DNA of 64,000 bases from Microcaecilia unicolor (GCF_901765095.1 NC_044034.1:62690339-62754338), one strand, 5' to 3'. Shown: positions 7,255 through 61,700, counted from the stretch's first letter. Notes: generated from the sequence alone by a model not told the origin. Numbers and translations: made by a program.

Positions 7255-7415
7255 ACTATTATGCTTTATCATTATCATGTTTCCCAAGATCCTTCTGTAA
7301 CACTAAATGTCTATTTTCTTTTACATTTCCACCATTCATGATGTATTGTAAGCCACATTGAATCTGCAAAGAGGTGGGAAAATGTGGGATACAAATGCAA
7401 TAAATAAATATATGA
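7255..7415 (+). mobile_element. LINE/SINE 3'-tail fragment (+ orientation) ending in an (AAAT)n-type repeat
   Basis: ttgtaagccacattgaatctgcaaagaggtgggaaaatgtgggatacaaatgcaataaataaata matches the 3' UTR terminus of the intact LINE at 39655-39715. Confidence 0.65.
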
Positions 7416-7479
7416 GTCCCAGACAGATAAAAGCTCATATAAATACGATATTTTTGCATAATTCCCCACAGTGGTCTAG

Positions 7480-7771
7480 AGAGAAAGTTAACTCACCGCA
7501 ACATCCAACCAGAAAATAAACGCAAAAGGCGGTTCTATTAAACCTCCTTTGCTGGGATCGCTCAGTTCCCGCCCTCTTCGCCTGGCTGACGGACTCCTCC
7601 TGACTTCCGTGCTTCGTCCAATGAGATGACACTTCACCGGTGCTCCCTTAGGGCGTAAGCGAAGTGACCCTTGCCCCGACGAGCTGGCGCAGCTGCTGAT
7701 TGGTGCAGGCGTCGCTGGCGACGGACGTTGCGGTGGTTCTAGTTGTATTGTGTTGTCTTAGTCCGAGCATC
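7480..7771 (+). promoter_or_regulatory. MPHOSPH8: CpG-island, TATA-less promoter and 5' UTR of MPHOSPH8. CCAAT box at 7618-7622. Inverted CCAAT (ATTGG) at 7699-7703.
   Basis: Sharp rise in GC/CpG content (gcgtaagcgaagtgacccttgccccgacgagctggcgcagctg...) immediately upstream of the first coding ATG. Two NF-Y-type CCAAT motifs in the spacing typical of housekeeping promoters. The CpG-rich sequence continues into intron 1 (to about 8250). Confidence 0.55.
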
Positions 7772-7942
7772 ATGGCGGCGCTTCCTGCAGATGAAACCGC
7801 GGGAAGCAGTGGAGCCGAGGATGCGCCTCAGGTCCCGGTAGAGGCAGGGTTGAAAGCAGAGCCGGCAGACAGCGAGCAGGATGTGGACGATGAAGAAGAT
7901 GTCTATGAGGTGGAGAAGATTATCGACTTCAAAACGGAAGGG
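7772..7942 (+). CDS. MPHOSPH8: MPHOSPH8 coding exon 1 (start codon; acidic N-terminus and start of chromodomain: ...EEDVYEVEKIIDFKTEG)
   Basis: ATG at 7772 in good Kozak context (gcatcATGG). The translation ends in the chromodomain start motif EDV(F/Y)EVEKI(L/I)D.KTEG seen in human MPP8. Donor GAAGGG|gtaagt at 7943. Phase 0. Confidence 0.85.
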
Positions 7943-9214
7943 GTAAGTGCACTGCAGACTGTATGGAAGGGCCCTGGCTTATACACTGCCGAGCTTAAGT
8001 CGTTGCAGTAGAAGAATTTGACAGCTCCTTTTGCACGCTTTGGTTAAGGAGGATGATGATGGCTGCCCCGGATCTCGCCGTGATGGAGTTGTTCAGGAGT
8101 CAGGAGAACATGCTGGGCTGCTTGTTAATGCCCGGAAGAGGGCGGGCACCAGGTGCTTGTTTCGTCTTCACCACTCCTCTCCGTATATACGTGAGGCTGC
8201 GGGAAGTAGTGCCGAGACTTGAGACTGTAAGGCGCTGATCTTCCTGTGCATTGTTTTCCATGCTTTACGTCCTGGGGAATTTCTTCCACCCAAATTTAAA
8301 AATGATCAAAATTGTGATTATGCTGCAAGTGGCTACTTAAGTTTGCTTAAGTTGTGTTTGCTGTAAGTTTTTTTTATATAATATTTTAAATATACACCAC
8401 TGAATTGAGTTGATTTATATCTAAACTAGCAATAAATATAAACTATTCCTGGGGAAATCTCGACCAATAGTTTATCCCAACACAGCATCAGCTATTTGAG
8501 AGCTTGGGGACTGGGTTAAAGATTGGTTCGCTTGGCTCCTCCTATTAAAAAAAGGTGTTCTGTCTCCCCTCCTTATAGAATTTGCACATACGTCTGCACT
8601 TACCCTGCAGAACTCTATACCTGGAGCAGGAAACAGAAAAGTAATCAACCCCCCACCCCGCTTAGGTTGTGTTTTCACTACCAAAGTGCACCAAGAAATG
8701 GGCCTTTCCTGCACATTAAGCCCATTTCTAGCATGGCTGACTAATGTTAGCATTAGGGCACAGCCATTTAGAAAAATTACCATGGAACCACTTACCACCT
8801 CCTGTTTAGGTGGTGTTAAGGACTCCCATATTATGGACATGCTAATCAGTTAGTGCTTCAGTAAAGTGCACGTACTAGCTGATTAGTACATCCACATCCG
8901 TTCTCTGCCCTTGACACAATCTCTCCAAAAATACAAAAAAAAAATAATTACCACATGTGCAGATGACAAAACTAACAATGCTTTAGCATGTCCTGCATTA
9001 GGCCATTTCTGCTGTATTGGGTGTGTGTTAGCACCTAACACAGCTTAGTAAAAGGACACCTATGTGATGGGGGAGGGGGAGACTGTAAGTTGGAGGGTTT
9101 GTGCCATAGAGGGGGAAAGAGTAAGTGGAGCAGGGGAACTGCAGAAAGGGGGAAGGTAGATTCTTAGGAACAGAAAGAACTACAGAAAGCAGAGAGTGTG
9201 CTGAATGAAAGGGA

Positions 9215-15946: not shown

Positions 15947-16102
15947 AATGAAATCTTGTATAGAGTTCGGTGGAAAGGATACACTTCTGATGATGATACC
16001 TGGGAGCCGGAAGCTCATCTGGAAGACTGTAAAGAAGTGCTTCTTGAATTCAGAAAGAGAATGCCAGAAGTCAAACCAAAACCTGTTAAGAAAGATACAC
16101 CG
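15947..16102 (+). CDS. MPHOSPH8: MPHOSPH8 coding exon 2 (chromodomain core: ILYRVRWKGYTSDDDTWEPEAHLEDCKEVLLEFRKRMPEVKPKPVKKDTP)
   Basis: Near-identical to human MPP8 VLYKVRWKGYTSDDDTWEPEIHLEDCKEVLLEFRKK. Acceptor ttttttgaatctag|AAT. Donor ACACCG|gtatgc. Phase 0 to 0. Confidence 0.9.
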
Positions 16103-19243: not shown

Positions 19244-20089
19244 AAACTATTGTTACATGATGATATTTTTGAGGCCGAATCTGACAGTGATTGGCAAAGT
19301 GAATCAAAAGAAGCAGTAACGCCAAAGAAGAAGAAAAAGAAATCAAAAGATGAGGACGATAAAACCCAGGATGAGTTAAGGAAAAAAAAATCCAAATCTG
19401 GAAAAACAAAAGAACGATCCAGGTCAGACCACCAAGAGACCTCAGATAGCTTGGATTCAAGAATAAAGAAAAGAATTTCAGAAAGTAGAGAAGATTTAAA
19501 AGAGATCAAGAAGCAAAGAAAAGAAGAATCTAGAGAAGCCAAGAAATTGAAGAAAGAGATAAAAGATGCAAAGGTGAAACATAAAGAGGATTATAAAGAA
19601 AATAAGCAGCAAAAGGAAGTTCTTGACCTTCCGTTAGAGTCTGAGTCCAGTGTAGTCGATATGGTTTCTCAGTCACCTGACTCTGAGCAAATGGATTTCC
19701 TTAATGAGAGCACATTAGAGGACCAACAGAAAGCAGACACTAGCAAAGATAAGATGGAGCAAGAGACTATTGAGACAAACACCATTGCTGACGGGCAGCC
19801 GGATGGCATGGCAAGTTCAGAAGAGGACTCTGAGATCAAGATGAAGCGAAAGAAGAAAAAAATGAAAAAAATGGACAAAAAGGAAAGTAAAAGGTTGGAT
19901 ACTAAAGATTCCCAGTTTGAGAAGAAAAGTGCACACAAAAAGCAAAAACATATAGAGAAGGTGAAAGTTCCTGTAGTGCCAGAAAAGCCGCCACCGCCGC
20001 CGCCATCATCTGCACCTGCTCCAGTACAAAAGAGTTCAAAATTAAGCATTGATGAGAAGGGGCGTAAGCCCATGGAGTCCTTTGGGGAG
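19244..20089 (+). CDS. MPHOSPH8: MPHOSPH8 coding exon 3 (large K/E/S-rich low-complexity linker exon: ...DDIFEAESDSDWQSESKE...KKKKKKSK...ESESSVVD...PPPPPPSSAP...)
   Basis: Starts with the NDIFEANSDSDQQSE motif of human MPP8 and has the same lysine/glutamate/serine-rich composition and the conserved ESESSV motif. Acceptor ctttcatttttag|AAA. Donor GGGGAG|gtaaga. 846 nt, phase 0 to 0. Confidence 0.85.
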
Positions 20090-22739
20090 GTAAGAAATAC
20101 TAAATACATACAAAACCATCTTGGTTATGATAGATAATCTACTGGAGACTTTATTTGAAACACTGTATAGCTGTTGATATCTTTGAAAGGAAATGTGATG
20201 GATAAGAAATGGTGGTGGATAAGATATAGATATAATAGTACAAGTTAAAAGGTTATACGGTCTAATGGTGTGTACATTTTTCGCATTCTGCTGTCTAAAA
20301 AATATCATTCAAAATGCATTTTACTAAGTTTGTTTCACAGATCTACACATCAAACTCTATATTTGTTTCTCAAGGAGGTCGTGGAGTATCCTCTAGCCAG
20401 CCTGGTTTTCAAGACACCTACAACAAATGTGTGAGAGAGAGAGTTGCATACACTTCCTCTGTTACCTACCAGTCTATATATCATGTATATTTGTTGTGAA
20501 TGTCTTGAAAAACAGAATGACCAGGGGATTCTCCAGGAACTAGCTTGAGAGACATTAGTCTACATGTCCAACACAATTGTAAAAATTTTCAAAAAGTAAT
20601 TAATAAGAAACAGGGAAGTCCTGATTGCACATGTCTTCACACCTTTAACTCCAGTGTTTCTCAAAATTACCTTTATAAGGCTTATAATTTAAATAGTCAC
20701 ATGTGTCCAGTCACAGTATGTGAGCTGATTCAAGTACACCTGGATGAAGAATTAAGCTGTTTCTGTTGTGTGAAGTGAATCTGGAACAGGGGTAAAAACA
20801 TGGAGCTGCCAAAACAGTCTGGAATAGTTAATGGTACAAGTTCAGGGAAGGTTCTTAGAAAATTTCAGTTTGAATATTCTTTATGACATGGACAAGGTGT
20901 TTGATCAGATGTCATGGACCTCAATGGGTCAAGGAAAGTACTGAAAAAAGTTACTATGAGGCCTAAGATTACTTAAAAAGAAAATTAGAGAGCTGTGGCT
21001 GAAATAGGGGAAAATATTGACTGTTCAACAATTTCTCTACACCCATAGTCTGTGTGGGAAGGTGGCAAGAAGAAAACCACTGCCTAAGAAAAGCCATGTG
21101 ATTTGCCATGTAGCATTTGCAAAGAAGCAGTTGAAGTACGCTGCACACATGGAAGAGAGAGGGCTGTATTTGGTCTGATAACAACGAAGTGGAATATTTT
21201 GGTCTCAGTTCTATGATATGTGCAGTATGGGGAAAAACCCAAAGCAACACCCTTCCATCTTTTAAAAAAAGTGCATAAGGGCCTATGCGCATCCGATGTG
21301 CGCCAAATCTGCATTTCCACCCAGCTACCGTGTGCCCCGGGTGGTAATTCCGAATTTGTTGCTTGATGAAAACATGCGGTAGAAAATATTTTCTACCGCG
21401 GTGCGCCTACCCAGCAGTAAACGGCAGTTGGCGTTTGCTTCATGCTTGCCGTGTGGGTAGCATGTGAGATCTTACCGCTAGGTCATTGGGTGGCGGTAAG
21501 GTCTGAAGCTGAAAATGGATGCGCGCTGGTTTCAGTTTAAGCGCATATCGATTTTCCGGCCCCTTAAAAAAGGCCCTTTTTGCTAGACTCGGTAAAAAGT
21601 GGCCCAGCGTGCCCAAAAGATGCGCTTGCACTACTGCAGGCCATTCTTTACTGTGGTTTAGTAAAAGGACCCCTCTATTGAAGAGATGCTTTGCAACAGC
21701 AGGACCAGGAAGGTTTGTAAAGACTGAGGGAAAGATTCAAAGTACAATTCCAAAATAAAGCAAGCAATATAGGTACAAAATGTATTAAACACTGTAAAAC
21801 TATTTTTGTAAATCAATAAAATAATGCAATATAGGTAAAATTAGGCATTGAAAATATAATGGAAATCAGACTCAACATAGCCATAAGAACATATGACCAT
21901 ATTTACTTTTCTACCCGGATAGGAAACTGTAGGACCAATAATTCTAGTTTGTTTTGTTTTTCTTCTATAAGGGGCAGAAAACCTTTTAAACAGGTTGAGT
22001 TTCTCTGGGTTTTCAAGTGGCAATATTTTGGACTGATTTATCTTTTGTCTGTCAGAAATCATGTTATTGAGATTTTAGAAAAAAAATCTTAAAACTTAAA
22101 TTATTTCAAAAATTTGTATTGTGAAGCAATCTGTAATTTCTGATATGCCTAAGTACAATTTCAAATTTTCTCTGTTTATATTGCATTATTCATCATTTTG
22201 AATTTATTGCAGTTGTATGTTATTCCTTGAGTTTACTCCAGCTCTTGTTTTGTTAACTACTTAGATCTACAAGGTATTAGTAGTCTACAATACTTTTTGT
22301 TATCTTATGTTGAAAGCCTAGTACAGGGGAGGAAGTGACGTCACCAAGCAACATGGTCACTTGAAACGAGAGCTCCCGCTACCCCACGTTGATTTTCTGG
22401 CGGTATCGTAGTAAGCGTTCCACTTTACAGAACGATTCAGAAGATTCTGAGTTCTTTTGTTTAGGAAAAGCGGAAGAAGCATGAGTGCGCCCTTAAGCTT
22501 AGCTAAATATGCCTTTACCGGCGATTCGGCAGCGAACCATGTGGTGGGCACACTAGCAGCGGTCCCGAACCAGGCAAGTGGTTCGGTAGAAGAAGGGTCT
22601 CAAGACTTATTTCCTTCGGAGCATGAGCGGGAAGCCCCAGACTCTTTCAGGGCCTCAGAATTACGAGACTGGTTATTGGAGACTAGAGAAAAAGGCCCGT
22701 TTCTGACAGAAATGAAACGGGCGCTAGCAAGGTTTTCCT

Positions 22740-22860
22740 CGGAGTGTGTATGTTTGAGAGAGTGTGTGTGAGATTGACTGTGTGAGAGAGAGTGAATGTG
22801 CGAGTGTGTGTGTGTGACAGAGAGAGCGTGAGACTGGGTGCGAGTGTGTGTGTGAGAATC
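22740..22860. repeat. (GT)n/(GA)n-type compound microsatellite (gtgtgtgagagagtg...)
   Basis: Direct reading. Confidence 0.8.
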
Positions 22861-23170
22861 AGTGTGTGTGCCAGGGGCCCCTCCCTCCCAGTTCCAGGGT
22901 CCCCCCTCCATCCCTCCCTCCGTCCCTCCGAGTTCCAGGGTCATCCCCCTTCCCTCCCTCCAAGTTCCAGGGTCATCCCCCCTTCCTCCGAGTTCCAGGG
23001 TCCCTTCCAGTTTCAGGGTCCCCCCCCCCACCCTCCCTCAGAGTTTCAGGGTCACTACCCTCCCAGTTCCAGGGTCACTTTCCCTCCCAATTCCAGGGTC
23101 CCCATACCAGTTCAAGGGTCCCTCCCCCTCCCTCCAAGTTCCACGGTCCTGTCCACTCCCTCCCTCTGAG
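22860..23170. repeat. GC-rich tandem repeat (units of about 30-36 bp, ccctccctccgagttccagggtca(t)cccc) giving proline/serine-rich ORFs in several frames
   Basis: Repeated gagttccagggtc / ccctccctcc blocks read directly. The three overlapping + strand ORFs at 22792-23305 are frame variants of the same repeat. Confidence 0.8.
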
Positions 23171-23639
23171 ATGCTTGGGGGGGGGGGGGGGTTGCTATTT
23201 GCTGTCAACCTAAGGAGACACTGCTTCTGGCGTCCACCAGCTAAGGCCTGTCCTGACCCAGAGGCAGCTGGAGCTCCCTCATACTCTTTCAGTGGCACAC
23301 ATTGACAGGCAACGGTGGGGCTGACGCAGCCTCGGGCACTTACCTGGATAAACTTTGTATTGTTGACAAATGATCTGAAAATACAGAGTTTAAAATTGCT
23401 GTTTCTACCACGTAGAATAATTTTTAAAGCTGTTTTAGTAATATTTAATTTAGATTTCATGATATTCATATGTACAGATGGGAAGCTTTCAAATAAATTA
23501 AAAAGGTGTGCAGTAAGAATCCAAAAACAAAAATCTTTTGTCCTTTACCTGTTAAGGCGCAGTTTATCCAGTAGAAACAGCTTTAGACGTGTTTCAGATG
23601 GAAGAAGGGAAAAAAAACGACAATATGGATCAGCAGCCC

Positions 23640-23975
23640 CTATGTGTGCTTGGTTTTGAGTGTATGGGAATGACGGCTGTGTTGGGGAGTGGAAACAGAG
23701 ATTAACCAATGGGCTTCCTTGCTTACAGTGTAGTTGATTGGGTCACTTCCACTCGTGTGTAGTAATCGTCCTGCAGCATGGCCGGAGTCGGGGAGGAGAG
23801 GGAGGGTGGCGGAACGGTGAGCGAGCGGTTGCAGGAGGGTGGGTGAGGGGAACTGTGGGCTTGGGGACGGGTCCAGCGACGATTTTGCTTGGTTTTGAGT
23901 GTATGGGAATGATGGCTGCGTTGGGGAGTGGAAACAGAGATTAACCAATGGGCTTCCTTGCTTACAGTGTAGTTG
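23640..23975. repeat. Local tandem duplication: a ~90-bp segment (gcttggttttgagtgtatgggaatgacggctgtgttggggagtggaaacagagattaaccaatgggcttccttgcttacagtgtagttg) is repeated at a spacing of about 237 bp
   Basis: Copy 1 at 23647-23737, copy 2 at 23884-23975, more than 95% identical. Confidence 0.8.
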
Positions 23976-25230
23976 TCGTCATTATGACCCGCCCTCGACG
24001 TCATCACATTTGACGTGTGGGCGGGGCAGACACTCATGGAGGAAAAGCGATCTCAGCACTTTTAGAACGTTGGGAAAGTGAGGCTTCATTAGAACGTTGG
24101 AGGTGCGTTTTATATAGAGAGATAAATAAATATAAAAATATATATATATATATAAATGCGAAGATAAGGATTCCCAAACCAAAAATAAAAAAACAAAATC
24201 ATTTACCAGCAATAATTATCTTTCCAAAGGTCTCAATGAGTATAATCCAATATACTCAATTTGAGAAAATGAAATGAAGTATTAAAACACCTGAGTTGAA
24301 AAATCAAACATGTACAGATGAACAATTTAAATACTTCCTAGTTTGTGAATCTGAAAATATAAATAGTACATACTGAATATTACATATATAGCAATAAACT
24401 CGGTCTTAATATACGCAATAAAAAGTCCATATAGGGCTAGATTCTATATATGGCACTGAAAAAAATTACGCTTAGGCATATTCTCTAAGGTACACCTAAA
24501 TTTTATAGAATTGGCTTAAATTTCCATGCAATATATAGAGTTATGCCGAGCACCTCTCCACGTGACCAAATTTAGTCATGGCCACATTTTACTTGGCGTA
24601 AATCCCGATGCCTAAATTAGGTATACAGTGGGTGTATTCTATAACAAGTCACATAGATTTTAGAAATGCCCATGCCCCACCAATGACTGCGCACCCTTTT
24701 CAACTGTACAACTTAGAATTTACGTGCACCATATTACAGAATACGCTTAGCGAGTTCTACGTGTAAATCTTAATTGCAGTTAGTGCTGATAATTGCTTGT
24801 AAATATCCAATTGACAGCACTGATTAGCTAGTTAACCAATAAGTTACACACGTTGTTATAGAATATGCTTCGATTTCCACGCAGATATTAAGGTGCAATG
24901 TATAGAGTACAGCAGATACTGCATAAAACATCTTTGTAAAAAATCTTAATTATTAAATCATCATTAATTATAAATTATGCTCTTGCAGATCAAATGTGAA
25001 GTGTACTATAGTGCATACGAAAACGAAGTTTGATTCGGAAATATACATACTTGGATGCTCTAACACCAAAGTGGATAGCATGGGAAGCCTTTGTTTTGGG
25101 AAAAAAAAAGGTGGGGGGAGGGTTAAAATAAGTTGCATAAAATTTCGACTGGGGATAAATGCTCTTATATAACTTCACATTTATGTGTTAAAAAAACATT
25201 GAGGAAAGGAATATAAGTGCATTTAGGGGT

Positions 25231-25368
25231 CCTTTTACTAAGGTGTGCCAACAGATTTAGCACGCGCTAAATAATAAGACACCTGTAAGAATATAATGGG
25301 CATCCTTTAGCACATGCTAATCAGCGTACGCTAAGTCCGTTAGCATACCTTAGTAGAAGGACCCCTTA
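25231..25368. mobile_element. Harbinger-like MITE of about 135 bp with about 17-bp TIRs (ggggtccttttactaag / cttagtagaaggacccc) and a TTA TSD
   Basis: Inverted termini read directly in the sequence. TTA sits immediately on both flanks (catTTA|gggg ... cccc|TTAgtt). Confidence 0.7.
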
Positions 25369-26399
25369 GTTCAGTGATTGCGTAACTCAGATTCATTCTG
25401 AAAAATGCCACGTATGTGTCCAGAGTCTCTTTGTGCCAAAAAATGGCATGTATAACAATTTATGCATTTGAAAATGAAACTAAAACTGGAATGAAATTAC
25501 AGATATGAAAAAATACATATTTTAGATTTTTAGAAAATTAGATAAAATTAAAAAAAATATTTGTGGTGTTACAATTAGAAGAATGCTTAAGTCACTAAAT
25601 TTTATTGGTGTGTGGATATACTCAAATTCAGTGAGGGGCACACTGAGCAGGAGTTGCATGGATGATGCCCCAAATGGTGCTACAGTTTCTTTAATGTTTT
25701 GATCTCTAGAATGGGCTATAATGAGTTTTAAGAAACATGACGGCAGGTAAGGGCCAAATATCCGATCCAGTCTGTCCATCCTCAGTAACCACTGTCTCTT
25801 CACATGCCTGTCCCATGCCTTCTTAAATTTAGAAGAAACCAAAAGAGAGGGTGAACAGCATACAAACCAATACAGAAACAAAAAGAAAGCAACACTGGGC
25901 CTTCAGGATTGAGATCATCAAAATCCTTCTTTATTATGAAATTGACCCGACACGGGCTGTGTTTCGGCACACAAGCGGCTGCATCAGGGGTCTGACATAA
26001 AAACATAAAGATCAAAAATTCATATAATCTGACTAGTGATACACATATAAAAACAAATAAAAAATTATTAGACATAAATACATAAGATCATTTAAAAAAA
26101 CAAAACAAAACCATAACAGGATAATAAGTACTTAAATAAAAACAATCAATATAAAAAAAATCCAGTCATACAAAAAGGACCAACATAATTATGCAAACAA
26201 AATATACATTCATGAGATAACCTTACCAAAAAGTTTTTGTGTCCTACAGGTCTGCTTGTGGACATAAAAGATATAGATAAACAATACAGGAAATGTTTTC
26301 TAAGGAAATGAGAAAAGGGAAGGAAGGCAACAGCATGTTAATAGGTGGGCAAACCTGTACAACCAATAGATACGGTTGTATTAAAAGAATTGAAAATAT

Positions 26400-28200
26400 A
26401 AAAAATGATTGGGATTATAATAAACTGTAATAAAACAACCTGATTAAATACTGGTGACCAACATGATGAAAACCATGTAAGGTAGCAGAGCATAGTTTAC
26501 TCACCACTGAGGTCAGACTAACAGGTCTGTAATTCCCAACCTCCTCCTTTCTTTCTGCTCTTGTGCAGCTGAACCACATCTGGTTTTTTTTTCTCCAGTC
26601 CTCTGGAACCACTCCAGACTCTAAAGCATTGAAGAGGTTAGACAATAGAGCTGCCAGAATTTCTCCAAGTTCCTTGAGTACCCTCGGTTGTATCCCATCA
26701 GACCCCATCACTTTGTCTATTTTTAGCTTAACTAGCTCCTCACGAACGCAGACTTCTGAGAGTTGGTCCTGGTCTACCATATATCTATCCCTATTAGCAT
26801 TTGTTTTCTGCAGTCCTTTCCCAGCCTTTCATCTGTGAACACAGAACACAAATATTTAAGTTCAGCTTTATCCTTATCAGCTTCTACATATTCCCCCCCT
26901 TTGCCCTTGAGCCTCACAATGCCATTTTGGCACTTCCTTCTATCTCTTACATATTAAAAAAATGTTTTGTACCCCAATTTTAACTTATTGGTTGTCTTTT
27001 CTTCCATTTGCATCTTCACTTTCCTGACAGCTTTTTCAGCTACTCTTAGCTTTTCTAGGTATTTTTGTCTGTCTTCCTCTTTCTGAGTTGCCTTGTAATT
27101 TATGAAGGCTAATCTCTTTTTTTCCCTTACCTTTTCAGGTACTACGTTTGAGAACCAAAGTGGCCTTCTTTTCCTCTTACTTTTATGTACTTTTTTAACG
27201 TGAAGGTTTGTCCCCTTTAAAATAGCTCCTTTCAGACTTGCTCACTGATGTTCTACTTCCTTCAGCTGTTCGCATCCAACAAACTACTTTGAGATATTCC
27301 CCTATCTTGTCAAAGTTAATTCTTTTGAAGTCTAGGACCTTCAGTCTTGAATAAGCCCACTCTTCCTGTAATATTGGACTACACCATTTGGTGATCACTA
27401 GATGCCAATTAATCTCCCACCTTAACATCAGAAACACTCTCCCTGTTTGTAAGCACTAGATGTAGAATAGCTCCATCCCGCATGGGTTCTGTTACCAACT
27501 GCTGGAACAGTTCTTCCTGTAGAGAATCCAAGATCCCCTTTCTTCTAGTCAACCCTGCAGCAGGGATGCCCCAATCGACGTCCGGCATAGTAAAATCACC
27601 TGAATCCAAGATCCCCTTTCTTCTAGACAACCCTGCAGCAGGGATGCCCCAATCGACGTCCGGCATAGTAAAATCACCTGAATCCAAGATCCCCTTTCTT
27701 CTAGACAACCCTGCAGCAGGGATGCCCCAATCGACGTCCGGCATAGTAAAATCACCTGAATCCAAGATCCCCTTTCTTCTAGACAACCCTGCAGCAGGGA
27801 TGCCCCAATCGACGTCTGGCATAGTAAAATCACCTGAATCCAAGATCCCCTTTCTTCTAGACAACCCTGCAGCAGGGATGCCCCAATCGACGTCTGGCAT
27901 AGTAAAATCATCTGAATCCAAGATCCCCTTTCTTCTAGACAACCCTGCAGCAGGGATGCCCCAATCGACATCCAGCATAGTAAAATCACCTGAATCCAAG
28001 ATCCCCTTTCTTCTAGACAACCCTGCAGCAGGGATGCCCCAATTGACGTCCGGCATAGTAAAATCACCTATCAGTAGTGCGTCCCCTTTCCTAGCTATCT
28101 TGTGAATGTTTTCAATTAAATCTCTGTCCATTTCTTCTGACTGTGAAGGAGGCCTGTATATCACACCATTGTAAATACATTTTCCATTCCCTCTTTCCAG
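26400..28200 (-). mobile_element. CR1-like LINE 5' portion: endonuclease domain (28164-27409) and RT N-terminus (26780-26415)
   Basis: The EN signature reads IYRPPSQSEEMDRDLIENIHKIARKGDALLIGDF(T/N)MPDVNW ... LQEELFQQLVTEPMRDGAILHLVLTNRE. The RT N-terminus reads GSDGIQPRVLKELGEILAALLSNLFN.SLESGVVPEDWRK.N......R.E.VGNYRPVSLTSVVSK. Both match CR1/L2 ORF2 conserved blocks. Confidence 0.7.
27523..28070. repeat. 78-bp minisatellite, about 7 near-identical units (ccaagatcccctttcttctagacaaccctgcagcagggatgccccaatcgacgtccggcatagtaaaatcacctgaat)
   Basis: The period was measured directly: the unit start tgaatccaag recurs at 27601, 27679 and onward. 78 is a multiple of 3, so all three frames on both strands stay open across the array. 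That is why the ORF track shows 207/251/172-aa repetitive ORFs. Confidence 0.9.
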
Positions 28201-31200
28201 GTTAACCCACTGTGCTTATTCCTTACCCCGTATGCCCTGCAATTCTTTCACTTTAATATTATTATTAACATATAATGCACTCCACCCTTTTTTCCTACCA
28301 TGTCCTTCCTGTATAGATTATAGCCAGGTATAACTGTATCCCAGTCATGGTTCTCCATGAACCACTTCTCCGTGACAGCCACTAAATCTAAGTCTGCTTC
28401 TACCATTACAGCCTCTAGGTCTAGAAATTAGTTTCCCATACTATGGGCATTGGTATACAAAGCTCTCCAGATATTACTCTTTTTCCCCATTTCTATAAAG
28501 GCATTTGATGTCTTACATTCCTGAGGGTTATTAATGACTTTGGGGCTTTTCTCTCTCATCCATCAATTTTAGTTTAAATTCCTCTTTAGTACATTACCCA
28601 GTCTACTGAAGAGACTTTGTCCCTTCTTTGATAGATGGACACCATCTCTGCTCAGTAGCTCTTGAAAAATCATCCCATGGTGTAGGAAACTGAAGCGCTC
28701 ACGGTAGTACCATCTGCACAGCCACACATTCAGTTCTAGGATGCGAGCTGCCCTCATTTGGCCTTTACCCTCAACAGAAAGGATCAATGAGAACACCACC
28801 TGTACACCTGACTGCTTCACCCTCTGTCCCAGAGCCATGAAGGGAAAGGGAATGGGACTTGATATGTTGCCTTTCTGTGGTTTTTGCAACTACATTAAAA
28901 GCAGTTTACATAGTATATACATGAAGTCATATTCGATATGTTCCGTAGGATACCTAGCAGCATCATTTGTGCCAAAATGGATGAGCAGCATAGGATTGTG
29001 GTCTGTAGGCTTGATGAGTCTCGGCAGACAGTACACCTCCCTGGACATCATGCCTGGTCGGCAGATGGGTGCCTCTTAACTTATCTGTGGTTCCCTAATA
29101 TGTGCCAGTGTTTTCTAATGATTTTTTAAAATCATTTGATAAGCTAGAGAATTTGAGTGCATACAAGGTCTGGCTGAGGATGCTCTGAAGCCATCTTGGC
29201 AATGTGGATATAGATTTAGTTACTCAGACAAGATGTATGTATTTTTCCATATCTGTAATTTCATTCCAGTTTGTTTCATTTCCAAGTGTGGAAATTGTTA
29301 TACACACTATTTTTTTGGTGCACATTTTCCTCTCACATAGCTAAGTTTCACTAGCTTCCTGTTCAAGAAAGAATTTTATATAAATCGACTTGTCTGATGT
29401 TTCAGGTCGTTCATTGAGCTGCCTCAGAATTGTTGATAAATTTGATTGTTGCACCATTAACTCGATTTTTAGCTTGATTGCAGAGTTCTTTTATTCTTTG
29501 TTCTCTTACTTTTAAAGGTGTTTGGGGGTTTTTTTTTTTTTTTTTTAGATAGCAAGTACTATGTTTTCATCTCTGGTAATTCCTTTTTTGGAACTATTTT
29601 TTGTCTGGTGTTAGAACTGAAACAAATTATTATGTTTCTCAAAGAAAGCTGAAAACTTGTTTGATAGATTCTGATTTAAAAAAAATACTGTGTTAAAAAA
29701 AAGTGTTAATGTATTGTAGCTGTTCCTAATTTGTAAACCACATTAGACCCTAATTCAGGGGATATAACGGTTGATATTTTCAGATACACTGGACTCGTAT
29801 GTGGCATTTTTCTGATTGCATCTGAATTAACACATCGCTGCAATTTTTATTCCTTTTCCTAATGTGTGTTATACATAAACATGAAGTTATATAAGAGCAT
29901 TTTACCCCAGTAGAAATCTTATGTAACTTATTTTATCCACCAGCCCCCCCTTTTTTCCCCCAAAAAACAAATGATTCTCACTCTATACATTTTGGTGCTA
30001 GAGCGCCTAAGTAAGTACGCCTTCAGTTTCTTTTGCAAGTTTTATTGCAGATACCATTCAAGTCTAAATTTATTAGTTTTGATAGTATGTGTTTTATGCA
30101 GATGTGACATCTGTTTTTGTGCGCTGCTTCTCTGCACAGTATATTACAGTCCACATTTGATCTGCAGGAGCATAATGTATAACTGATTATTTTATAATTA
30201 AGATATTTTACAACAAAGAAGTAGTTTATGGACGTTTTATTGTGTATGAGATTATTGCTTATATGTAAGTGTGTGTGCTATTTATATTTTCAGGTTCACA
30301 AAATAGGAAGTATTTTAATTTTCTGTTCATCCGAATGTTTTAATACTTCATTTTTTCCAGTTGGATATATTGGATTACACTCATTGAAACCTTTGGAAAG
30401 ATAATTACAGCTGGTAAATGATTTTTTTTGTTGTTGTTGTCATCAGCAATCCTTATCTTTACATTTTTTTTAAATGTAGAACTTAGTACTTTCCAAGTTA
30501 TAATATAGCAGTGTTTCATTTAAGACTATTACGTATTCATCACACTATTTCTTGGTCTGATGAGTCTATAAACTTGTACTTTTGTATAACTTTTGTCTTT
30601 TAAAACATTGATGTTTTTGTTATGTTTTATTTTTGCATATGTTTTATTGTTCTTTTTATAGACCCCTGAAGCAGGAATTTGCTGAAATAGGACCTGTCGG
30701 GTGTCTTCATAAAAATTGATTAACATACTGATTCCTGAGGCCTATGTGCTTTTTCTTCATTATATGGTTCTGCTGCACCATTGAGTCCCTCTCCTTGGCT
30801 TGGCTTATTTTAAAAATTATCTATAGCCTCAGTAAAAGTTGTACATGTTATTAAAATAATTTGGGAAAGTACTACTACTACTACTATTTAGCATTTCTAT
30901 AGCGCTACAAGGCATACGCAGCGCTGAAAGCATATGGAAAGCAGGGAGGAATACACATGGAAATATGTTTCTTGGAATGATTTCCTCCATGTCTGCATTT
31001 GTCTCTGGGATTGATGCAGAAAGGCCCACAGTATAGCCATGCGTGGATGGCTGAGTGCACGGTATATTGTTTTTGTTTTTTTTTTTTACAATTTTTTTTA
31101 ACATGCTTAATTTCTCTGTAATCCTTGGTCAAATTCTGTGTCTTCTCACTGTTTTTTCGACTACACCAAATGCAGTTCTGTTATGTTTTTGGAGCGTCCT

Positions 31201-36049: not shown

Positions 36050-37260
36050 TGTGTCAGTTAATGATTCTGCTTCTCGCTCTGGGTTGCAACGTGTCCCAAA
36101 ACCTCTCCCAGGTCTTCTGTAAAGATTTCCCTTCCTCTGTGTCCAATTCTGCCACACTGCATCGCTCCATTTTCAGCAGCTCTATCATGTGTGATCTCCA
36201 CATCCCCAAAGTGGGCGCCTCCTGTTCTCTCCAGCATATCAAAATAGACTGCTTCCCCACCATTACTGCTCTTTGCAAAAACCGGTTGAACCCTGATAGG
36301 GTTGCCCCTGTGTTGTGGTATTCCTCAAATAGGAACAGAGGGTGCCGCCGTACTCTACGGCCCCATTGAGTATAGATTTCTCTCAGTACCTGGGTCCAGA
36401 AAAACAGTATGCGCTCACAAGTCCAAAACGTGGCCCAGAGTGGCCGGGTCTCTTCCACACTTGGGGCAAGCCCCTGACTCTCCAAACCCAGCCTTATACG
36501 CTCTTGCTGGAGAAATGTGGAGGCGAAGTGCAAACCTGTACTGCAGTTCCCAGTACTTGGGAAAGGGGGAACTCTTTTGAATTATCTGAAGATACTTCCA
36601 AAACAGATCTCTTGTCACCTCTGTTCCCAATTCCAGTGTCCACACTCTCACTCTGCCCTTGCAATCCAGATCTGTTGTTGTGTCCAACAAAAAACGATGA
36701 TGAAAACGCAGGGGAATCACATTATGCGCTCCCAGTGTCAGAGCTGAGTTAAGTTTCTTGCATATCCTCACATAAATGCGTCCACTCTAGGGCCGAGATA
36801 TAATGGTGTGCCTGCATGTATGCCAAATAATCCCCTGGCAGCACCGCATATTCCTCTTGAATGTCTGCAAAAGAACGAACTTTGCCTTCTTCATTTATCA
36901 GATGATACAGGTAGCGGACTCCCTGCTTTCGCCAGCGAGCGAATGCAGCTGTGGTGGACCCCGCAGGGAAGTCTGGGTTATTATGCAATGCTATGAAGGG
37001 CGTCACACTCGCCGAGAAACCATGTCTTCTACATAGCCACCGCCAGGCTGCTGTAGCTGAATATACCAGCGGATTTTTAGAAATCCCTGGCACTGACATT
37101 GCTCTCGGCAAGTGCAGCAACCAGCTGAGATGTGCCATTGGGGACATAGCAGACTCTATTACAGTCGCTGAAAAGTCTTGTTTCCCGATTAACCAATCCC
37201 TAACGTGCTGCAGGGCACGCAACACTGTTAAATACCTTATATTTAGAAGTCCCATCCCTC
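36050..37260 (-). mobile_element. L1-like LINE ORF2 C-terminal fragment
   Basis: The minus-strand ORFs 36054-36533, 36415-36771 and 36749-37255 contain ...GACPKCGRDPATLGHVL... and ...RYLYHLINEEGKVRSFADIQEEY..., conserved blocks of the vertebrate L1 ORF2 tail. Frameshifts are present. Confidence 0.6.
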
Positions 37261-39600: not shown

Positions 39601-39984
39601 AAAGGCCTGTCTCCTGGGCAAACAACTTATTTTATTTATTTATTTATTTATTGTTTGTACTTGTATCCCACATTTTCCCACCTCTTTGCGGGCTCAGTGT
39701 GGCTTACAATAAGATATGAATAATGAGAATACAGTTGTTACAAATTGGTTATGGGTTACATTGTACAAGTTATGCGAGATAATCGAATTATCATTAGGAA
39801 TATCACAATGGGACATCAACAGGGAGAGTTTGGGAGGAGACAATGGGAAGCTTAAGGGCAGTCTTAAGACACATAGGCACATGGTGTACATATTCCTGTA
39901 AGTATATGTATGAGTAATGTGGAATTAGGGGGATGAGAGATCATAAGTGGATGTGTGATGCATTTATGTAAGTGAGTGTGGGCT

Positions 39985-58765: not shown

Positions 58766-61700
58766 TTTCAGAATCCTCTTATAATTTAACAACTATGAAT
58801 AACTTTGAGCATCTTTTACAAAGCAGCGCTAGCGATTCCTGTGTGGCAAATGAGAGGAAGCCCATAGGAATTGAATGGGTTTCCTCTTATTTGCCGTGCA
58901 GGAATTGCTAGCACGGCTTTATAAAAGAAGCCCTTTGTGTCATCAGCAAATTTAATTGCCTCACTAGTTATTCCCATCTCTAGATCATTTTTAAATGTAT
59001 TAAAAAGCAGGTGTTCCAGCACAGACCTCTGGGAAACCCCCACTAATCTACCCTTCTCCATTGAGAATACTGACCATTTAACCCTACTCTCTGTTTTCTG
59101 TCTTTTAACTAGTTTTTAATCCACAATAGGACACTACCTCCTATCCCACGACTTTCTGATTTCCTCATGTGGTACTTTGTCAAATGCCGTTTGAAAATCC
59201 AAATACACAAAATTGACCAGCTCACTTTTATCCATATGTTTATTCACTCCTTCAAGATATGTTGCGTGATATTTAGTTTGATTAAAGGTCTTGCCTGTTG
59301 CAGTCCTCGGTTGCATTCCCCTTTTCTTTTATGACAGCCTGGAAGCTATGTATTTCCATTGGTGAGGTATTTCTTCCTGCTTGTCCTTGGAGATAGTGAA
59401 CGTACTAATCTGTAGCAGGTGTACTCTTCAACAGGATGAATCTTCTTCCTGCTCCACCTATCTCCCCTTGGAGTTGAATTCTCATCAGTTGCATCAGACT
59501 GATCTGGTCCCGTGTGATGATATTGGGCAGGAAGACATGTGCTTGTGTCGTGAGTCGCTCCCAAGCACTTCTAGAAAGGGTGCTAGGGGGCGTTTTCTGC
59601 ACCAGGCTCTGTTTTATGATGTCACCCATCAGGGAGGATATTTGCTATAGATAACCTGCAGCAGCTTCTTAAACTGTAACATTTTATGCTAATAACTAGC
59701 CGTTAAGCCCGTTAAAACGGGCGAGATTTCCAGCTACCCTCCTCGCCGCCGCTCCCTCCCCCCTCTGTGCTGGGTCCCCTGCACTGACCTGAAAGTGCTT
59801 CCACACGGAGGTGAGAGGCGCTGTCAGGTCAGTGCAGGGGGCCCGATACGGAGGGGGGCGGGAAGCGGCGGCGGGGATGGGGGGGAGGGTGGAGGTTGGT
59901 ACACGCGATGTTCATTTCCAGGCGGCAGCGTCTGACAGTCCAACTCCGTTTCCCTCTCTGTTCCGCCCTCTGATGTCATCACGTCTTGACGCGAGGGCGG
60001 GACAGAGAGGGAAGTCTCTACTGCGCATTTGCAGGTGAGTCGGTCACTTTCAATTTATATGTTTGATTGGGGATGGATTAAAAATGAATAATGATTGCTT
60101 CTTGGATTTGATGAAGCAAATTATATATGAACCTTGAAAGCCACGGAAATAGAATACAAACAGAATGACTGAAAGCTTAAGTCAAAATAAGGAATATATG
60201 AATAAATAGTTTAAAAAAAAAACAAAAAACGTCCAAATCAGTATTTTTGAAACCTATTTTTAGATGTTTTTCTATGAAGTCCGTCAGAAGTCCGTCCAAA
60301 TTCAAGGGGGCGTGTTCAGGGCGGGACTTGGGCGTGACTTAGATGTTTTTCAGACGTAATGGAACAAAACAAAAACGTCCAGGACTAAAACTTAGATGTT
60401 TTGAGCTAGACCTGTTTTTATTACAAACAAGGCACAAAAAGGTGCCCTAAATGACCAGATGACCACTGGAGGGAATCAGGAATGACCTCCCCTTATTCCC
60501 CTAGTGGTCACTAACCCCCTCCCACCCTCCAAAAGTGTGATGAAAAACATTACTTGCCAGCCTCAGATGTTATACTCAGGTCCATTATCCCTGGAGTAGT
60601 CTAGTATTTGGTGCATTGCACTGCAGACAGGTGGACCCAGCCTTCGTCCTCTCCCTACCTGTTACAATTGTGGAGGAAACTGCGAGCCCTCCAAAACTCA
60701 CCAGAAACCCACTGTACCCACATAGGTGCCCCCTTCACCCGTAAGGGCAATGATAGTGGTGTACCTGAGAGCATTTTATGAAGTCCACTGCAGTGCCCCC
60801 TAGGGTGCCCTATTGCTGTGCTGGGATGTCAGGGGGACCAGTCTACTAAGAATACTGGCTCCTTCTACATCCCTTTGGCTTGATTGTGTACATTTTGCAC
60901 TTGGATGTTTTGTTTTGTTTTTTTCAAAAAATGAACCAAAACAAAAACATCACAAAACGTCCAAAATACAAAACGTCCGTAGTATTTTCGAAAAAAAAAA
61001 GATGTTTTTCATTTTCAAAAATGGCCTTCTTTCCTGTTCAGAATTTGGATGTTTTGTGTAAAACGTCCAAATTCAGATTTAGATGTCATATCGAAAATGC
61101 CCCTCCACGTATGACTAAAGAGTGTCAATTTATATCAGTGTCTTATTTCAAACATTGTGTAAAAACAAGCTGTTAGATTGGTCAAGTTCAGAAATTGTCA
61201 TAAAAATAAGATTGATTTTAGGGATCAATTTCCTATTATAAAAAAAATGACTGAAGGAACATCTACTATGTAATTTGATTATAAAATCAAAAGCCTTGGC
61301 GTTACTGCATTACCCAAAACGTTGGAAGTGAACTTTCAGTGCTTTTTATTTATTTCATGGAAACCTTGTTTAAGGCTGAAATATACTAACTACACCTTTA
61401 AGCTTTATTTTCTATTATACTTTTATATGCATCCCTTCCCAAGGTGCAACTCCATATATTGCCACTATTCAGATTCGTAAGCTTCAGGGATCAAGATGAG
61501 TTTTCTGTAGCTGACAAAGTAAAGCAGACTTACAAAGTTCCATAGGTTACCATGCAACTTTGTAAGTCTAAGTACTTTGAGAATATGCCTCAACATGCAC
61601 AAAAAACTGCAATATTAAGTTGCAAATCACTCTACCTGCTATTGTTAGACCTTGTCACTTTTCTTCAGAAAACCATTTTCGGAAGCACTACATCTTTATT

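What the first reader, a model, noticed from the sequence alone, without database searches (positions are those of the whole stretch)
22320..24070. Intronic CpG-rich block with CRE-like palindromes, CCAAT and GC boxes and a duplicated segment: a candidate internal promoter or unannotated element
Inside MPHOSPH8 intron 3 the AT-rich background is interrupted by a CpG-dense stretch. It begins with ggaagTGACGTCAccaag (a perfect CRE/ATF palindrome at about 22333). A 104-codon ORF (22457-22771) follows, then a GT/GA microsatellite and a Pro-rich GC tandem repeat. The block ends with a duplicated ~90-bp segment containing ccaatggg, followed by gacccgccctcgacgtcatcacatttgacgtgtgggcggggc (two TGACG half-sites plus a GC box). 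The ORF product does not match anything I recognise. This could be a CpG-island alternative promoter, a nested gene, or a GC-rich repeat family.
Basis: seen in the sequence. Interest (0 to 1): 0.5.

Follow-up and report, generated by a model that had tools for sequence, protein, structure and literature searches.

The report
Intronic GC-rich repeat mosaic, promoter-like motifs
A 1.8-kb GC-rich patch in an intron of the MPHOSPH8 gene of a cold-blooded vertebrate really does contain promoter-type motifs, but it encodes no recognisable protein and looks most like young repeat-derived DNA; whether it acts as a promoter could not be tested here.

Summary
It is not one CpG island. Two ~0.44-kb CpG-rich patches (22320-22760, o/e 0.89; 23640-24070, o/e 0.78) flank 0.88 kb of CpG-poor DNA (o/e 0.26).

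The ORF is no longer than chance allows. It has no Pfam domain and no credible homologue in two very large protein searches, so the nested-gene reading fails.

The single TGACGTCA is within chance. It does lie in a near-exact ETS/CRE composite motif.

CpG-dense patches are common in this window (17 in 64 kb), and most of the others testable are repeats. The two 90-bp copies differ only at two CpG/TpG sites, which suggests methylation-driven decay. The terminal palindrome (GC box, two CRE-like sites, GC box) has a second copy 36 kb away at 59963-60000.

I found no target-site duplications, terminal repeats or second full copy. No genome close to the source was reachable, so copy number, conservation and transcription remain untested.

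Best reading (about 0.5): young, lineage-specific, repeat-derived non-coding DNA carrying its own promoter-like modules. The main rival (about 0.25) is a real internal promoter. It rests on a 13-codon ATG mini-exon (23778-23816) with a good splice donor that would join exon 4 in frame. Interest is low.

The parts
22320..22760 (.). CpG-rich patch 1: GC 50%, CpG o/e 0.89, 24 CpG. It has a sharp GC step from about 28-34% in the left flank.
22330..22344 (+). ETS/CRE-type composite AGGAAGTGACGTCAC, containing the only TGACGTCA of the window (22336-22343). It matches the published GABPalpha/CREB composite (C/G)CGGAAGTGACGTCAC except that the first CG is AG.
   Evidence: PMC3464117 and PMC4555227
22457..22771 (+). 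Open reading frame: 104 codons from TTG, 96 from the ATG at 22481. It has no homologue and no domain, and its length is within chance. Most likely not coding.
22742..22870 (.). GT/GA-rich degenerate microsatellite-like run.
22870..23170 (.). Degenerate C-rich minisatellite: about 10 units of 18-41 bp with core CCCTCCCTCC[A/G/C]AGTTCCAGGGTC. CpG-poor. The 'Pro-rich' translation is a by-product of the composition.
23177..23191 (.). Perfect G15 homopolymer.
23192..23344 (.). Unique GC-rich segment. On the minus strand it starts with a consensus 5' splice-site sequence CAG|GTAAGT (GT at 23343-23342).
23345..23646 (.). Spacer, AT-rich (GC about 26%) up to about 23550 and rising towards the repeat. 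It has an AATAAA at 23492-23497 and a short A-rich run at 23523-23532. The candidate retroposition target-site duplication (22302-22310 and 23533-23541) is not significant.
23647..23736 (+). 90-bp direct repeat, copy 1, with CCAAT at 23706. It differs from copy 2 only at 23674 (C vs T) and 23680 (T vs C). Both differences are CpG/TpG.
23737..23885 (+). G-rich, CpG-dense 149-bp segment between the two copies. It contains an inverted CCAAT (23737), GTCACTTCC (an ETS core on the minus strand, 23742), an ATG with a strong Kozak context at 23778, and 13 codons ending at 23816 followed by the donor ACG|GTGAGC. This is a possible alternative first exon, in phase with exon 4.
23886..23975 (+). 90-bp direct repeat, copy 2 (98% identical, 239 bp start-to-start), with CCAAT at 23945.
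23989..24024 (+). Imperfect palindrome: CCGCCC, CGACGTCA, 7 nt, TGACGTGT, GGGCGG (GC box, CRE-like site, CRE-like site, GC box). It is the only part of the block with a second copy in the window.
24062..24154 (.). Right edge. It holds a 12-bp direct repeat TTAGAACGTTGG (24062-24073 and 24089-24100), a TATA-like TTTTATATAG (24108-24117, which reads TATAAAA on the minus strand), AATAAA motifs, and a (TA)n microsatellite at 24111-24154. An unrelated old inverted repeat begins at 24154.
59963..60000 (+). Second copy of the palindrome module (CCGCCCTCTGATGTCATCACGTCTTGACGCGAGGGCGG). It lies in another intronic GC-rich patch, next to a ~150-nt hairpin and the best-scoring splice donor of the window (GT at 60035).

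Best explanation
The block is a mosaic of young, lineage-specific, non-coding, repeat-derived DNA inside a transposon-filled intron. It is neither a gene nor a classical CpG island. It consists of two short CpG-rich low-copy segments, an unstable core between them (microsatellite, minisatellite, G15) and an AT-rich spacer. One segment has recently undergone a local partial duplication.

On this reading the CpG richness reflects recent arrival or turnover, not germline protection from methylation. The promoter-type motifs belong to the inserted sequence's own regulatory modules. These motifs are the ETS/CRE composite, the CCAAT boxes, the GC-box/CRE palindrome and the TATA-like run. At least the palindrome module is a dispersed unit.

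Any promoter activity would then be that of a cryptic, repeat-borne promoter, most likely silenced by DNA methylation.

Shown: the anatomy, the lack of coding capacity, the second copy of the module, the base rate of repeat-derived CpG patches, and the CpG-only differences between the duplicates.

Inferred: the repeat or transposon origin of the whole block, its youth, and its methylation.
For: 1. Seventeen CpG-dense patches occur in 64 kb. Of the 14 that are neither the MPHOSPH8 promoter nor this block, 8 have at least 100 bp with a distant copy inside the same window. CpG-rich therefore usually means repeat in this genome.

2. The intron is a mosaic of mobile elements:
- a Tc1 remnant with an inserted MITE;
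- a LINE with RT/endonuclease-like ORFs;
- 1.2-kb inverted repeat arms that start right at the block's edge.

3. The GC-box/CRE palindrome recurs at 59963-60000 in the same orientation. blastn gives 84% identity over 44 bp, nhmmer gives whole-window E 0.016-0.029, and the alignment z-score is about 7.5. Weak colinear similarity of the C-rich and G-rich parts is only suggestive (z 2-3).

4. The two 90-bp copies differ at 2 of 90 positions. Both are CpG/TpG; assuming the CpG state is ancestral at both, that is 2 of 4 CpG sites against 0 of 176 other bases. This is the signature of methyl-CpG deamination. The duplication (98% identity) is much younger than neighbouring repeats (67-87%).

5. There is no domain in any of six frames and no protein homologue.

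6. No similarity and no intronic CpG patch were found in two distant orthologous MPHOSPH8 contigs.

7. The GC steps at both edges are sharp, and the block contains unstable simple repeats, including a perfect G15.
Against: - No target-site duplication, terminal inverted repeat, LTR termini or convincing poly(A) end was found.
- Apart from the 36-44-bp module, nothing in the block has a second copy in the 64 kb.
- The module match is short and only borderline significant window-wide.
- The methylation argument rests on only two substitutions.
- CpG o/e (0.78-0.89) equals that of the true MPHOSPH8 promoter (0.87).
- The motif set is what a housekeeping-type promoter looks like.
- Repeat origin and promoter function are not mutually exclusive.
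Confidence: 0.5

Rival explanations
1. The block is a functional internal promoter, that is a non-methylated island. One version is an alternative MPHOSPH8 promoter. Transcripts would start near 23760, use the 13-codon first exon 23778-23816 (MAGVGEEREGGGT) and splice in frame to exon 4. The product would lack the chromodomain and the exon-3 region. The other version is a promoter of an unannotated non-coding RNA on either strand. In both, ETS/CREB, NF-Y and Sp1-type factors would bind the composite motif, the CCAAT boxes and the GC boxes.
For: - AGGAAGTGACGTCAC is one base from the GABPalpha/CREB composite that marks proximal promoters (PMC3464117, PMC4555227).
- Two forward CCAAT boxes and one inverted CCAAT, two GC boxes and three further TGACG half-sites are present.
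- CpG o/e is like that of the true promoter.
- The ATG at 23778 has A at -3 and G at +4. Its donor ACG|GTGAGC ranks 22nd of 3657 GT sites, within the range of the real MPHOSPH8 donors.
- Exon 3 ends, and exon 4 starts, in phase 0, so the mini-exon would be in frame.
- Shorter MPP8 models without a chromodomain are annotated in other species. None shares this N-terminus, and some may be partial models.
Against: - Each element is individually within chance. One such donor occurs per ~2.9 kb, in-frame phase has a 1 in 3 chance, and TGACGTCA is expected 0.4 times.
- GC is only 50-54%, and the patches are short and separated by CpG-poor DNA.
- The CpG/TpG-only differences between the 90-bp copies suggest methylation.
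- No counterpart exists in the distant orthologous contigs.
- In cold-blooded vertebrates computed CpG islands mostly lie away from TSSs (PMC3583005).
- No expression data are available.
Confidence: 0.25
2. The left 1.2 kb (about 22311-23532) is one retroposed, polyadenylated unit. It would be a non-autonomous composite retrotransposon, or a retrocopy of a lineage-specific non-coding RNA, mobilised by a LINE. Its layout is a CpG-rich 5' part with an internal promoter, then micro- and minisatellites, a unique 3' part, AATAAA and a short A tail. This resembles SVA elements of hominoids. The right 0.5 kb would be a separate piece.
For: - AATAAA at 23492-23497 is followed 25 nt later by AAAAACAAAA.
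- That A run is followed by ATCTTTTGT, which matches ATCTTATGT (22302-22310) abutting the left GC step.
- The minisatellite is internal.
- LINEs are present in the same intron.
Against: - The 8-of-9 duplication is not significant. 22% of shuffled left flanks and 95 of 278 other intron windows do as well.
- The A tail is only 10 nt.
- No second copy exists in the window.
Confidence: 0.1
3. The block is a nested protein-coding gene whose first or only exon is the ORF 22481-22771, driven by the upstream ETS/CRE site.
For: - The ATG has A at -3, about 140 nt downstream of the ETS/CRE motif.
- An ATG ORF of 96 codons is reached by only 2.4% of shuffles of that segment.
Against: - No Pfam domain.
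- No hit among 5.8 billion protein clusters.
- The only hit in a full HMMER scan of 1.84 billion representatives is a spurious summed match to a bacterial repeat adhesin, E 9e-4.
- The stop-to-stop frame length is reached by 14% of shuffles.
- The frame runs into the GT/GA microsatellite.
Confidence: 0.03
4. The palindromic GC-box/CRE modules and hairpins are relics of an integrated small DNA virus, for example parvovirus-type terminal hairpins with their adjacent promoter and leader exon.
For: This is only a resemblance recalled from memory. Erythroparvovirus terminal repeats carry GC boxes, GGAAGTGACGTCA-type motifs and long palindromes. A literature hit for that 13-mer is an erythroparvovirus paper. 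The second locus has a ~150-nt hairpin, the module and a strong donor in series.
Against: - No viral ORF: six-frame Pfam of the block is empty.
- tblastn with a remembered AAV2 Rep78 sequence finds nothing in the window.
- A 22-mer of the module has no exact match in IMG/VR.
- These motifs are generic promoter elements.
Confidence: 0.02

Closest known systems
Young CpG-rich interspersed repeats, or cryptic transposon-borne promoters, in vertebrate introns
   Same: - Sharp composition step in an AT-rich, transposon-filled intron.
- CpG content not yet decayed.
- Internal micro- and minisatellites, and a local duplication.
- One module recurs elsewhere.
- Carries its own transcription-factor motifs.
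- No host-protein coding capacity.
   Different: - No termini, target-site duplications or transposon protein were found.
- Only a 36-44-bp module is demonstrably multi-copy.
- The family is unidentified, because no repeat library or source genome was available.
CpG-island or non-methylated-island alternative promoters inside genes
   Same: - CpG o/e 0.8-0.9, like the gene's own promoter.
- ETS/CRE composite, CCAAT, GC boxes and a TATA-like run.
- A short ATG exon with a good donor, in frame with the next host exon.
   Different: - Two short (~0.44 kb) patches at only 50-54% GC, separated by CpG-poor DNA.
- CpG-to-TpG decay between the duplicates.
- No conservation or transcription evidence.
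ETS/CRE composite motif (C/G)CGGAAGTGACGTCAC bound by GABPalpha and CREB1 (PMC3464117, PMC4555227)
   Same: 14 of 15 positions match, with exact overlap geometry: GGAAGTGACGTCAC at 22331-22344.
   Different: The 5' CG of the ETS half is AG. The paper notes that CG-disrupting one-base variants are more abundant genome-wide. Binding was not tested, and a single occurrence is within chance.
SVA-type composite retrotransposons (hominoids)
   Same: The order of parts: a CpG-rich 5' region, a GC-rich VNTR with CCCTCC-type units, a unique 3' part, AATAAA and an A-rich end.
   Different: No Alu-like or SINE-R parts and no significant target-site duplication. The tail is only 10 nt and no other copies were seen. 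The host lineage is different, so at most this is an analogy.

Membership tests
CpG island (sequence definition) | Gardiner-Garden and Frommer criteria: at least 200 bp, GC at least 50%, CpG o/e at least 0.6. | tested here: inconclusive
   Patch 2 (23640-24070) passes with GC 53.6% and o/e 0.78. Patch 1 (22320-22760) is borderline with GC 49.9% and o/e 0.89. The whole block 22320-24070 fails with o/e 0.52.
CpG island (sequence definition) | Takai-Jones criteria: at least 500 bp, GC at least 55%, o/e at least 0.65. | tested here: not met
   Both patches are under 500 bp and under 55% GC.
Non-methylated island or functional promoter | Unmethylated in germline and soma. | not testable with these tools
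   Only indirect evidence exists. Both differences between the 90-bp copies are CpG/TpG, which suggests methylation at those sites.
Non-methylated island or functional promoter | Transcription initiation, shown by CAGE, RNA-seq or open chromatin. | not testable with these tools
   No expression or chromatin data are available.
Non-methylated island or functional promoter | A cluster of core or proximal promoter motifs beyond chance. | tested here: inconclusive
   TGACG is 8-fold enriched and GGAAGTGAC is found only here, but TGACGTCA is expected 0.4 times and CCAAT is barely enriched (2.9 vs 2.2 per kb). The enrichment tracks CpG density.
Alternative first exon of MPHOSPH8 | An ATG exon with a usable donor, in frame with the downstream exon. 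| tested here: met
   The exon is 23778-23816 (39 nt). Its donor scores 5.7 and ranks 22 of 3657; real donors score 2.2-7.1. Exon 3 ends and exon 4 starts in phase 0. This is necessary but not sufficient, and it was found post hoc.
Protein-coding gene | A homologue or a recognisable domain. | tested here: not met
Protein-coding gene | An ORF longer than chance. | tested here: not met
   14% of dinucleotide shuffles reach 106 codons.
Transposable element or interspersed repeat | Multiple dispersed copies. | tested here: inconclusive
   Only the 36-44-bp palindrome module has a second copy, at 59963-60000. The rest is unique within 64 kb.
Transposable element or interspersed repeat | Defined termini: TIRs, LTR TG...CA ends or a poly(A) tail, with target-site duplication. 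| tested here: not met
   No TIR or TSD of at least 8 bp was found. The 5-bp TG...CA candidates and the 9-bp retroposition candidate are at chance level.
Transposable element or interspersed repeat | Transposon-encoded protein (transposase, RT or integrase). | tested here: not met
   Six-frame Pfam of 22300-24160 is empty. Non-autonomous elements would also lack these.
Minisatellite (VNTR) | Head-to-tail units of 10-100 bp. | tested here: met
   TRF and the repeat finder report about 10 units of 18-41 bp, with 75-90% matches, at 22870-23170.
Known structured RNA gene | A match to an Rfam covariance model. | tested here: not met
   Nothing in the block at E up to 1 other than a far sub-threshold SCARNA2 hit (17.6 vs 48 bits) over the low-complexity region, and nothing in the window at gathering score. 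The RNA fold z-score of patch 1 is -0.9.

The most novel reading that the evidence does not exclude
The GC-box/CRE palindrome, together with the adjacent hairpin or G-rich segment and a strong splice donor, would be the promoter-plus-leader cassette of an undescribed dispersed element in this amphibian-like genome. Two copies sit in introns of MPHOSPH8, a HUSH silencing-complex gene. One or both would be active as an internal promoter, donating an alternative first exon and producing a chromodomain-less MPP8 isoform.
Probability: 0.08. Interest if true: 0.45.

Novelty: new member of a known kind. Interest (0 to 1): 0.15.

Why it matters
As it stands this is an annotation question. The region should be masked or flagged as repeat-derived low-complexity DNA, and the ORF should not be called a gene. 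The case also shows that in CpG-moderate, transposon-rich cold-blooded genomes a CpG-rich patch with textbook promoter motifs is weak evidence for a promoter.

If the minority reading were true, a repeat-borne internal promoter would generate a truncated isoform of a HUSH component, a complex that silences intronic retroelements. That would be a modestly interesting example of transposon co-option.

Tried and rejected
- Protein homology for the ORF. Pfam, the word-indexed search and a full HMMER scan gave nothing real.
- Six-frame Pfam of the whole block gave nothing.
- Rfam and tRNA scans found nothing credible in the block and nothing in the window at gathering score. The RNA fold of patch 1 is not unusual.
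- Finding the source species or close relatives for an orthologous-intron comparison. Two MPP8 protein searches gave at best 48-71% identity and no close relative. Exact look-ups of 10 window ORFs were all absent from the collection.
- Two distant orthologous Logan contigs were fetched. They share nothing with intron 3.
- DNA pattern scans of public collections. Block 22-27-mers had no match. The minisatellite core gave only single chance hits in bacterial contigs.
- Searches for TSDs, TIRs and LTR ends gave nothing convincing.
- The retroposition TSD ATCTTATGT/ATCTTTTGT is not significant.
- Apparent similarity of 23505-23552 to the start of the neighbouring inverted-repeat arm was rejected on alignment.
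- Homology between the inter-repeat segment and the sequence before or after the 90-bp copies, or between patch 1 and patch 2: none.
- Extending the homology between the block and the 59.7-60.0 kb locus beyond the module: only weak (z 2-3) in low-complexity sequence.
- A Helitron reading was considered by eye and dropped. There is no CTRR end at the right distance from either hairpin.
- NUMT and rDNA-spacer readings were dropped. No rRNA or tRNA was found.
- A parvovirus-like reading: tblastn with a remembered AAV2 Rep78 found nothing.

Full report
**Setting.** The window is a vertebrate genomic segment with GC 41% and CpG o/e 0.39. tblastn with a remembered human MPP8 sequence places MPHOSPH8 on the + strand. 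Exon 1 is near 7895 inside the strongest CpG island of the window (7400-8100). Exon 2 is at 15953-16102, exon 3 at 19244-20089, the next exon near 31700, and further exons lie at 46.9, 48.0, 48.2, 49.1 and 61.9 kb. The protein is about 70% identical to both primate and frog MPP8. From memory only, the interspersed repeats look like those of caecilian amphibians. The source species and its close relatives are absent from every searchable collection.

**Check of the observation.** All the listed features are present:
- TGACGTCA at 22336-22343.
- ORF 22457-22771. It has 104 codons only with a TTG start, and 96 from the ATG at 22481.
- A GT/GA-rich run at 22742-22870.
- A degenerate C-rich minisatellite at 22870-23170, with units of 18-41 bp and core CCCTCCCTCC-N-AGTTCCAGGGTC.
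- G15 at 23177-23191.
- Two 90-bp copies, 23647-23736 and 23886-23975, 88/90 identical, each with a CCAAT.
- The terminal GC-box/TGACG string at 23986-24027.

Three corrections matter:
1. The block is not one CpG-dense stretch. Patch 1 (22320-22760) has GC 50% and o/e 0.89. Patch 2 (23640-24070) has GC 54% and o/e 0.78. The 879 bp between them has o/e 0.26 and includes a spacer whose core is only about 26% GC.
2. The terminal string is an imperfect palindrome with two inverted GC boxes around two CRE-like sites. Its DNA fold z-score is -3.8.
3. CpG-dense patches are common here, 17 in 64 kb.

**Is it beyond chance?**
- One TGACGTCA is not: 0.4 are expected, and 34 of 100 shuffles have at least one.
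- The open frame is not: 14% of dinucleotide shuffles of that segment reach 106 codons. The ATG ORF is marginal at 2.4%.
- TGACG half-sites are about 8-fold enriched (7 of 32) and GC boxes about 4-fold. This follows from CpG density.
- CCAAT is barely enriched.
- GGAAGTGAC occurs only twice in the window, both times in the block, once on each strand.
- The left one forms AGGAAGTGACGTCAC. This is one base from the ETS/CRE composite (C/G)CGGAAGTGACGTCAC, which GABPalpha and CREB1 bind cooperatively in human proximal promoters (PMC3464117, PMC4555227).
- The deviating base removes the first CG. The paper notes that CG-disrupting one-base variants are more abundant genome-wide than the consensus 11-mer.

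**Coding capacity.** The ORF product has no Pfam domain. It has no hit in the word-indexed search of 5.8 billion protein clusters. In a full HMMER scan of 1.84 billion representatives it gets one E = 9e-4 hit. That hit is the sum of 11 weak matches to a bacterial Ig-repeat adhesin and is spurious. All six frames of 22300-24160 are empty against Pfam. No Rfam family, tRNA or unusually stable RNA fold is present. The nested-gene reading is rejected.

**Surroundings.** Intron 3 is a mosaic of mobile DNA:
- A decayed Tc1/mariner copy at about 20400-21760, with an HTH_Tnp_Tc3_2 hit.
- That copy is interrupted by a CpG-rich MITE-like repeat, 21465-21674. This repeat has a copy at 2404-2622.
- Directly right of the block, a large old inverted repeat: 24154-25519 against 30466-29236, 73-87% identical. 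It encloses a minus-strand LINE with endonuclease/RT-like ORFs.
- The block's right edge is a (TA)n microsatellite that abuts the start of the left arm.

Of the 14 CpG-dense patches that are neither the MPHOSPH8 promoter nor this block, 8 have at least 100 bp with a distant copy within the same 64 kb. This is a very insensitive repeat test. The base rate for 'CpG-rich patch = interspersed repeat' in this genome is therefore high.

**Internal evidence on age and methylation.** The two 90-bp copies differ at only two positions: GACGG vs GATGG, and TGTG vs TGCG. Both are CpG/TpG differences. If the CpG state is ancestral at both, each copy has lost a different CpG: 2 of 4 CpG sites changed against 0 of 176 other bases. 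That is the signature of methyl-cytosine deamination. It argues that at least this part is methylated in the germline. The duplication (98%) is far younger than neighbouring repeats (67-87%). The sample is only two substitutions, so this is suggestive and not proof.

**A second copy of one module.** While checking another GC-rich intronic patch I found that the palindrome recurs in the same orientation:
- 23989-24024: CCGCCCTC-GACGTCATCACAT-TTGACGTGTGGGCGG
- 59963-60000: CCGCCCTCTGATGTCATCACGTCTTGACGCGAGGGCGG

The supporting numbers are 84% identity over 44 bp, nhmmer E 0.016-0.029 for the whole window, and a local-alignment z-score of about 7.5. A pattern search finds only these two sites.

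The second locus (59727-60040, GC 63%) also holds a ~150-nt near-perfect hairpin, with DNA fold z -11.7. It carries the best-scoring 5' splice-site sequence on the window's + strand 33 nt after the module: CAG|GTGAGT. Its C-rich and G-rich arms are weakly similar to the block's minisatellite and G-rich inter-repeat segment, in the same order. That signal is low-complexity and only z 2-3.

**What would make it a transposon was not found.** There are no terminal inverted repeats and no duplications of 8 bp or more at plausible boundaries. Only chance-level 5-bp TG...CA candidates turned up. One layout is attractive. AATAAA at 23492 is followed 25 nt later by a 10-nt A-rich run. Then comes ATCTTTTGT, which matches ATCTTATGT at the left GC step. 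This would make 22311-23532 a retroposed composite unit. The match is not significant, however. 22% of shuffled flanks and 95 of 278 other intron windows do as well.

**What would make it a promoter.** Patch 2 has a forward and an inverted CCAAT 31 bp apart, followed by an ETS core. Next comes an ATG at 23778 with A at -3 and G at +4. It opens 13 codons that end at 23816 before ACG|GTGAGC. That donor ranks 22nd of 3657 GT sites and lies within the range of genuine MPHOSPH8 donors. Exon 3 ends and exon 4 begins in phase 0. The mini-exon would therefore splice in frame and yield an MPP8 without its chromodomain. This was found post hoc. A donor of that strength occurs about once per 2.9 kb, and the phase match has a 1 in 3 chance. 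A consensus CAG|GTAAGT sequence also sits on the minus strand at 23343. None of this can be tested without transcript data.

In cold-blooded vertebrates, sequence-predicted CpG islands mostly lie away from TSSs; only about 17% of frog TSSs overlap one (PMC3583005). Two distant orthologous MPHOSPH8 contigs show no similarity and no intronic CpG patch. This shows only that the block is not deeply conserved.

**Verdict.**
- The most likely explanation (about 0.5) is a young, lineage-specific, non-coding mosaic of repeat-derived DNA. On this reading, CpG richness reflects youth. The promoter-like motifs are part of the inserted sequence, and at least one of them is a dispersed module. The block is probably methylated.
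- A truly active internal promoter, which could itself be repeat-borne, remains a serious rival (about 0.25).
- A retroposed composite unit for the left 1.2 kb is a mechanistic variant (about 0.1).
- A nested gene (0.03) and a viral relic (0.02) are unlikely. The viral idea is a recollection about parvoviral terminal repeats. It has no supporting ORF and no IMG/VR match.

The decisive data are genome-wide copy count, sister-species alignment, CAGE or RNA-seq, and methylation. None of these was reachable here.

Noticed in passing
window 59727-60040: A second intronic GC-rich patch (GC 63%). It contains a ~150-nt near-perfect hairpin (59734-59879, DNA fold z -11.7), the second copy of the GC-box/CRE palindrome (59963-60000), and the top-scoring 5' splice-site sequence on the window's + strand (CAG|GTGAGT, GT at 60035). 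In series these look like a palindrome, promoter and leader-exon cassette. Its nature is unknown.
   Followed up: partly
window 24154-25519 and 29236-30466: A large old inverted repeat with arms of about 1.2 kb, 73-87% identical, and later insertions in the left arm. It encloses about 3.7 kb that is mostly a minus-strand LINE fragment. It could be a long-TIR or foldback element, or an inverted duplication. It begins exactly at the (TA)n that ends the block.
   Followed up: partly
window 27409-28164 (minus strand): A LINE endonuclease-like ORF whose 'GDFTMPDVDWGIPAAGLSRRKGILDS' segment is tandemly amplified about 7 times in frame (DNA repeat 27524-28069). This is an unusual in-frame minisatellite inside a retrotransposon ORF.
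   Followed up: no
window 25227-25363: A palindromic MITE-like element (GGGGTCCTTTTACTAAGG ... CCTTAGTAGAAGGACCCC). It gives weak sub-threshold plant-miRNA Rfam hits on both strands (E 4e-4, 33 bits against a 100-bit gathering score). This is a hairpin artefact, not a miRNA gene.
   Followed up: no
window 20400-21760: A decayed Tc1/mariner transposase remnant (HTH_Tnp_Tc3_2, E 0.0014) interrupted by a CpG-rich repeat at about 21280-21690. That repeat has an inverted copy at 2404-2622.
   Followed up: partly
window 23343 (minus strand): A consensus 5' splice-site sequence CAG|GTAAGT (score 8.6) on the strand antisense to MPHOSPH8. It is preceded by a 42-codon ATG frame (23469-23344) ending in phase 0. 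It may be chance, or the first exon of an antisense transcript starting in patch 2.
   Followed up: no
window 36671-37230, 39941-40420, 40921-41260, 41621-42440, 43941-44520: Further CpG-dense patches (o/e 0.66-0.88) with no or almost no distant copy in the window. They were not examined and could be single-copy repeats or regulatory elements.
   Followed up: no
protein searches: No full-length (~860 aa) MPP8 was returned from any species. All hits were 522 aa or shorter. Several annotated 'MPHOSPH8' models (chimpanzee isoform 3, bullfrog, cobra, many fishes) lack the chromodomain. These are either partial models or real short isoforms.
   Followed up: no
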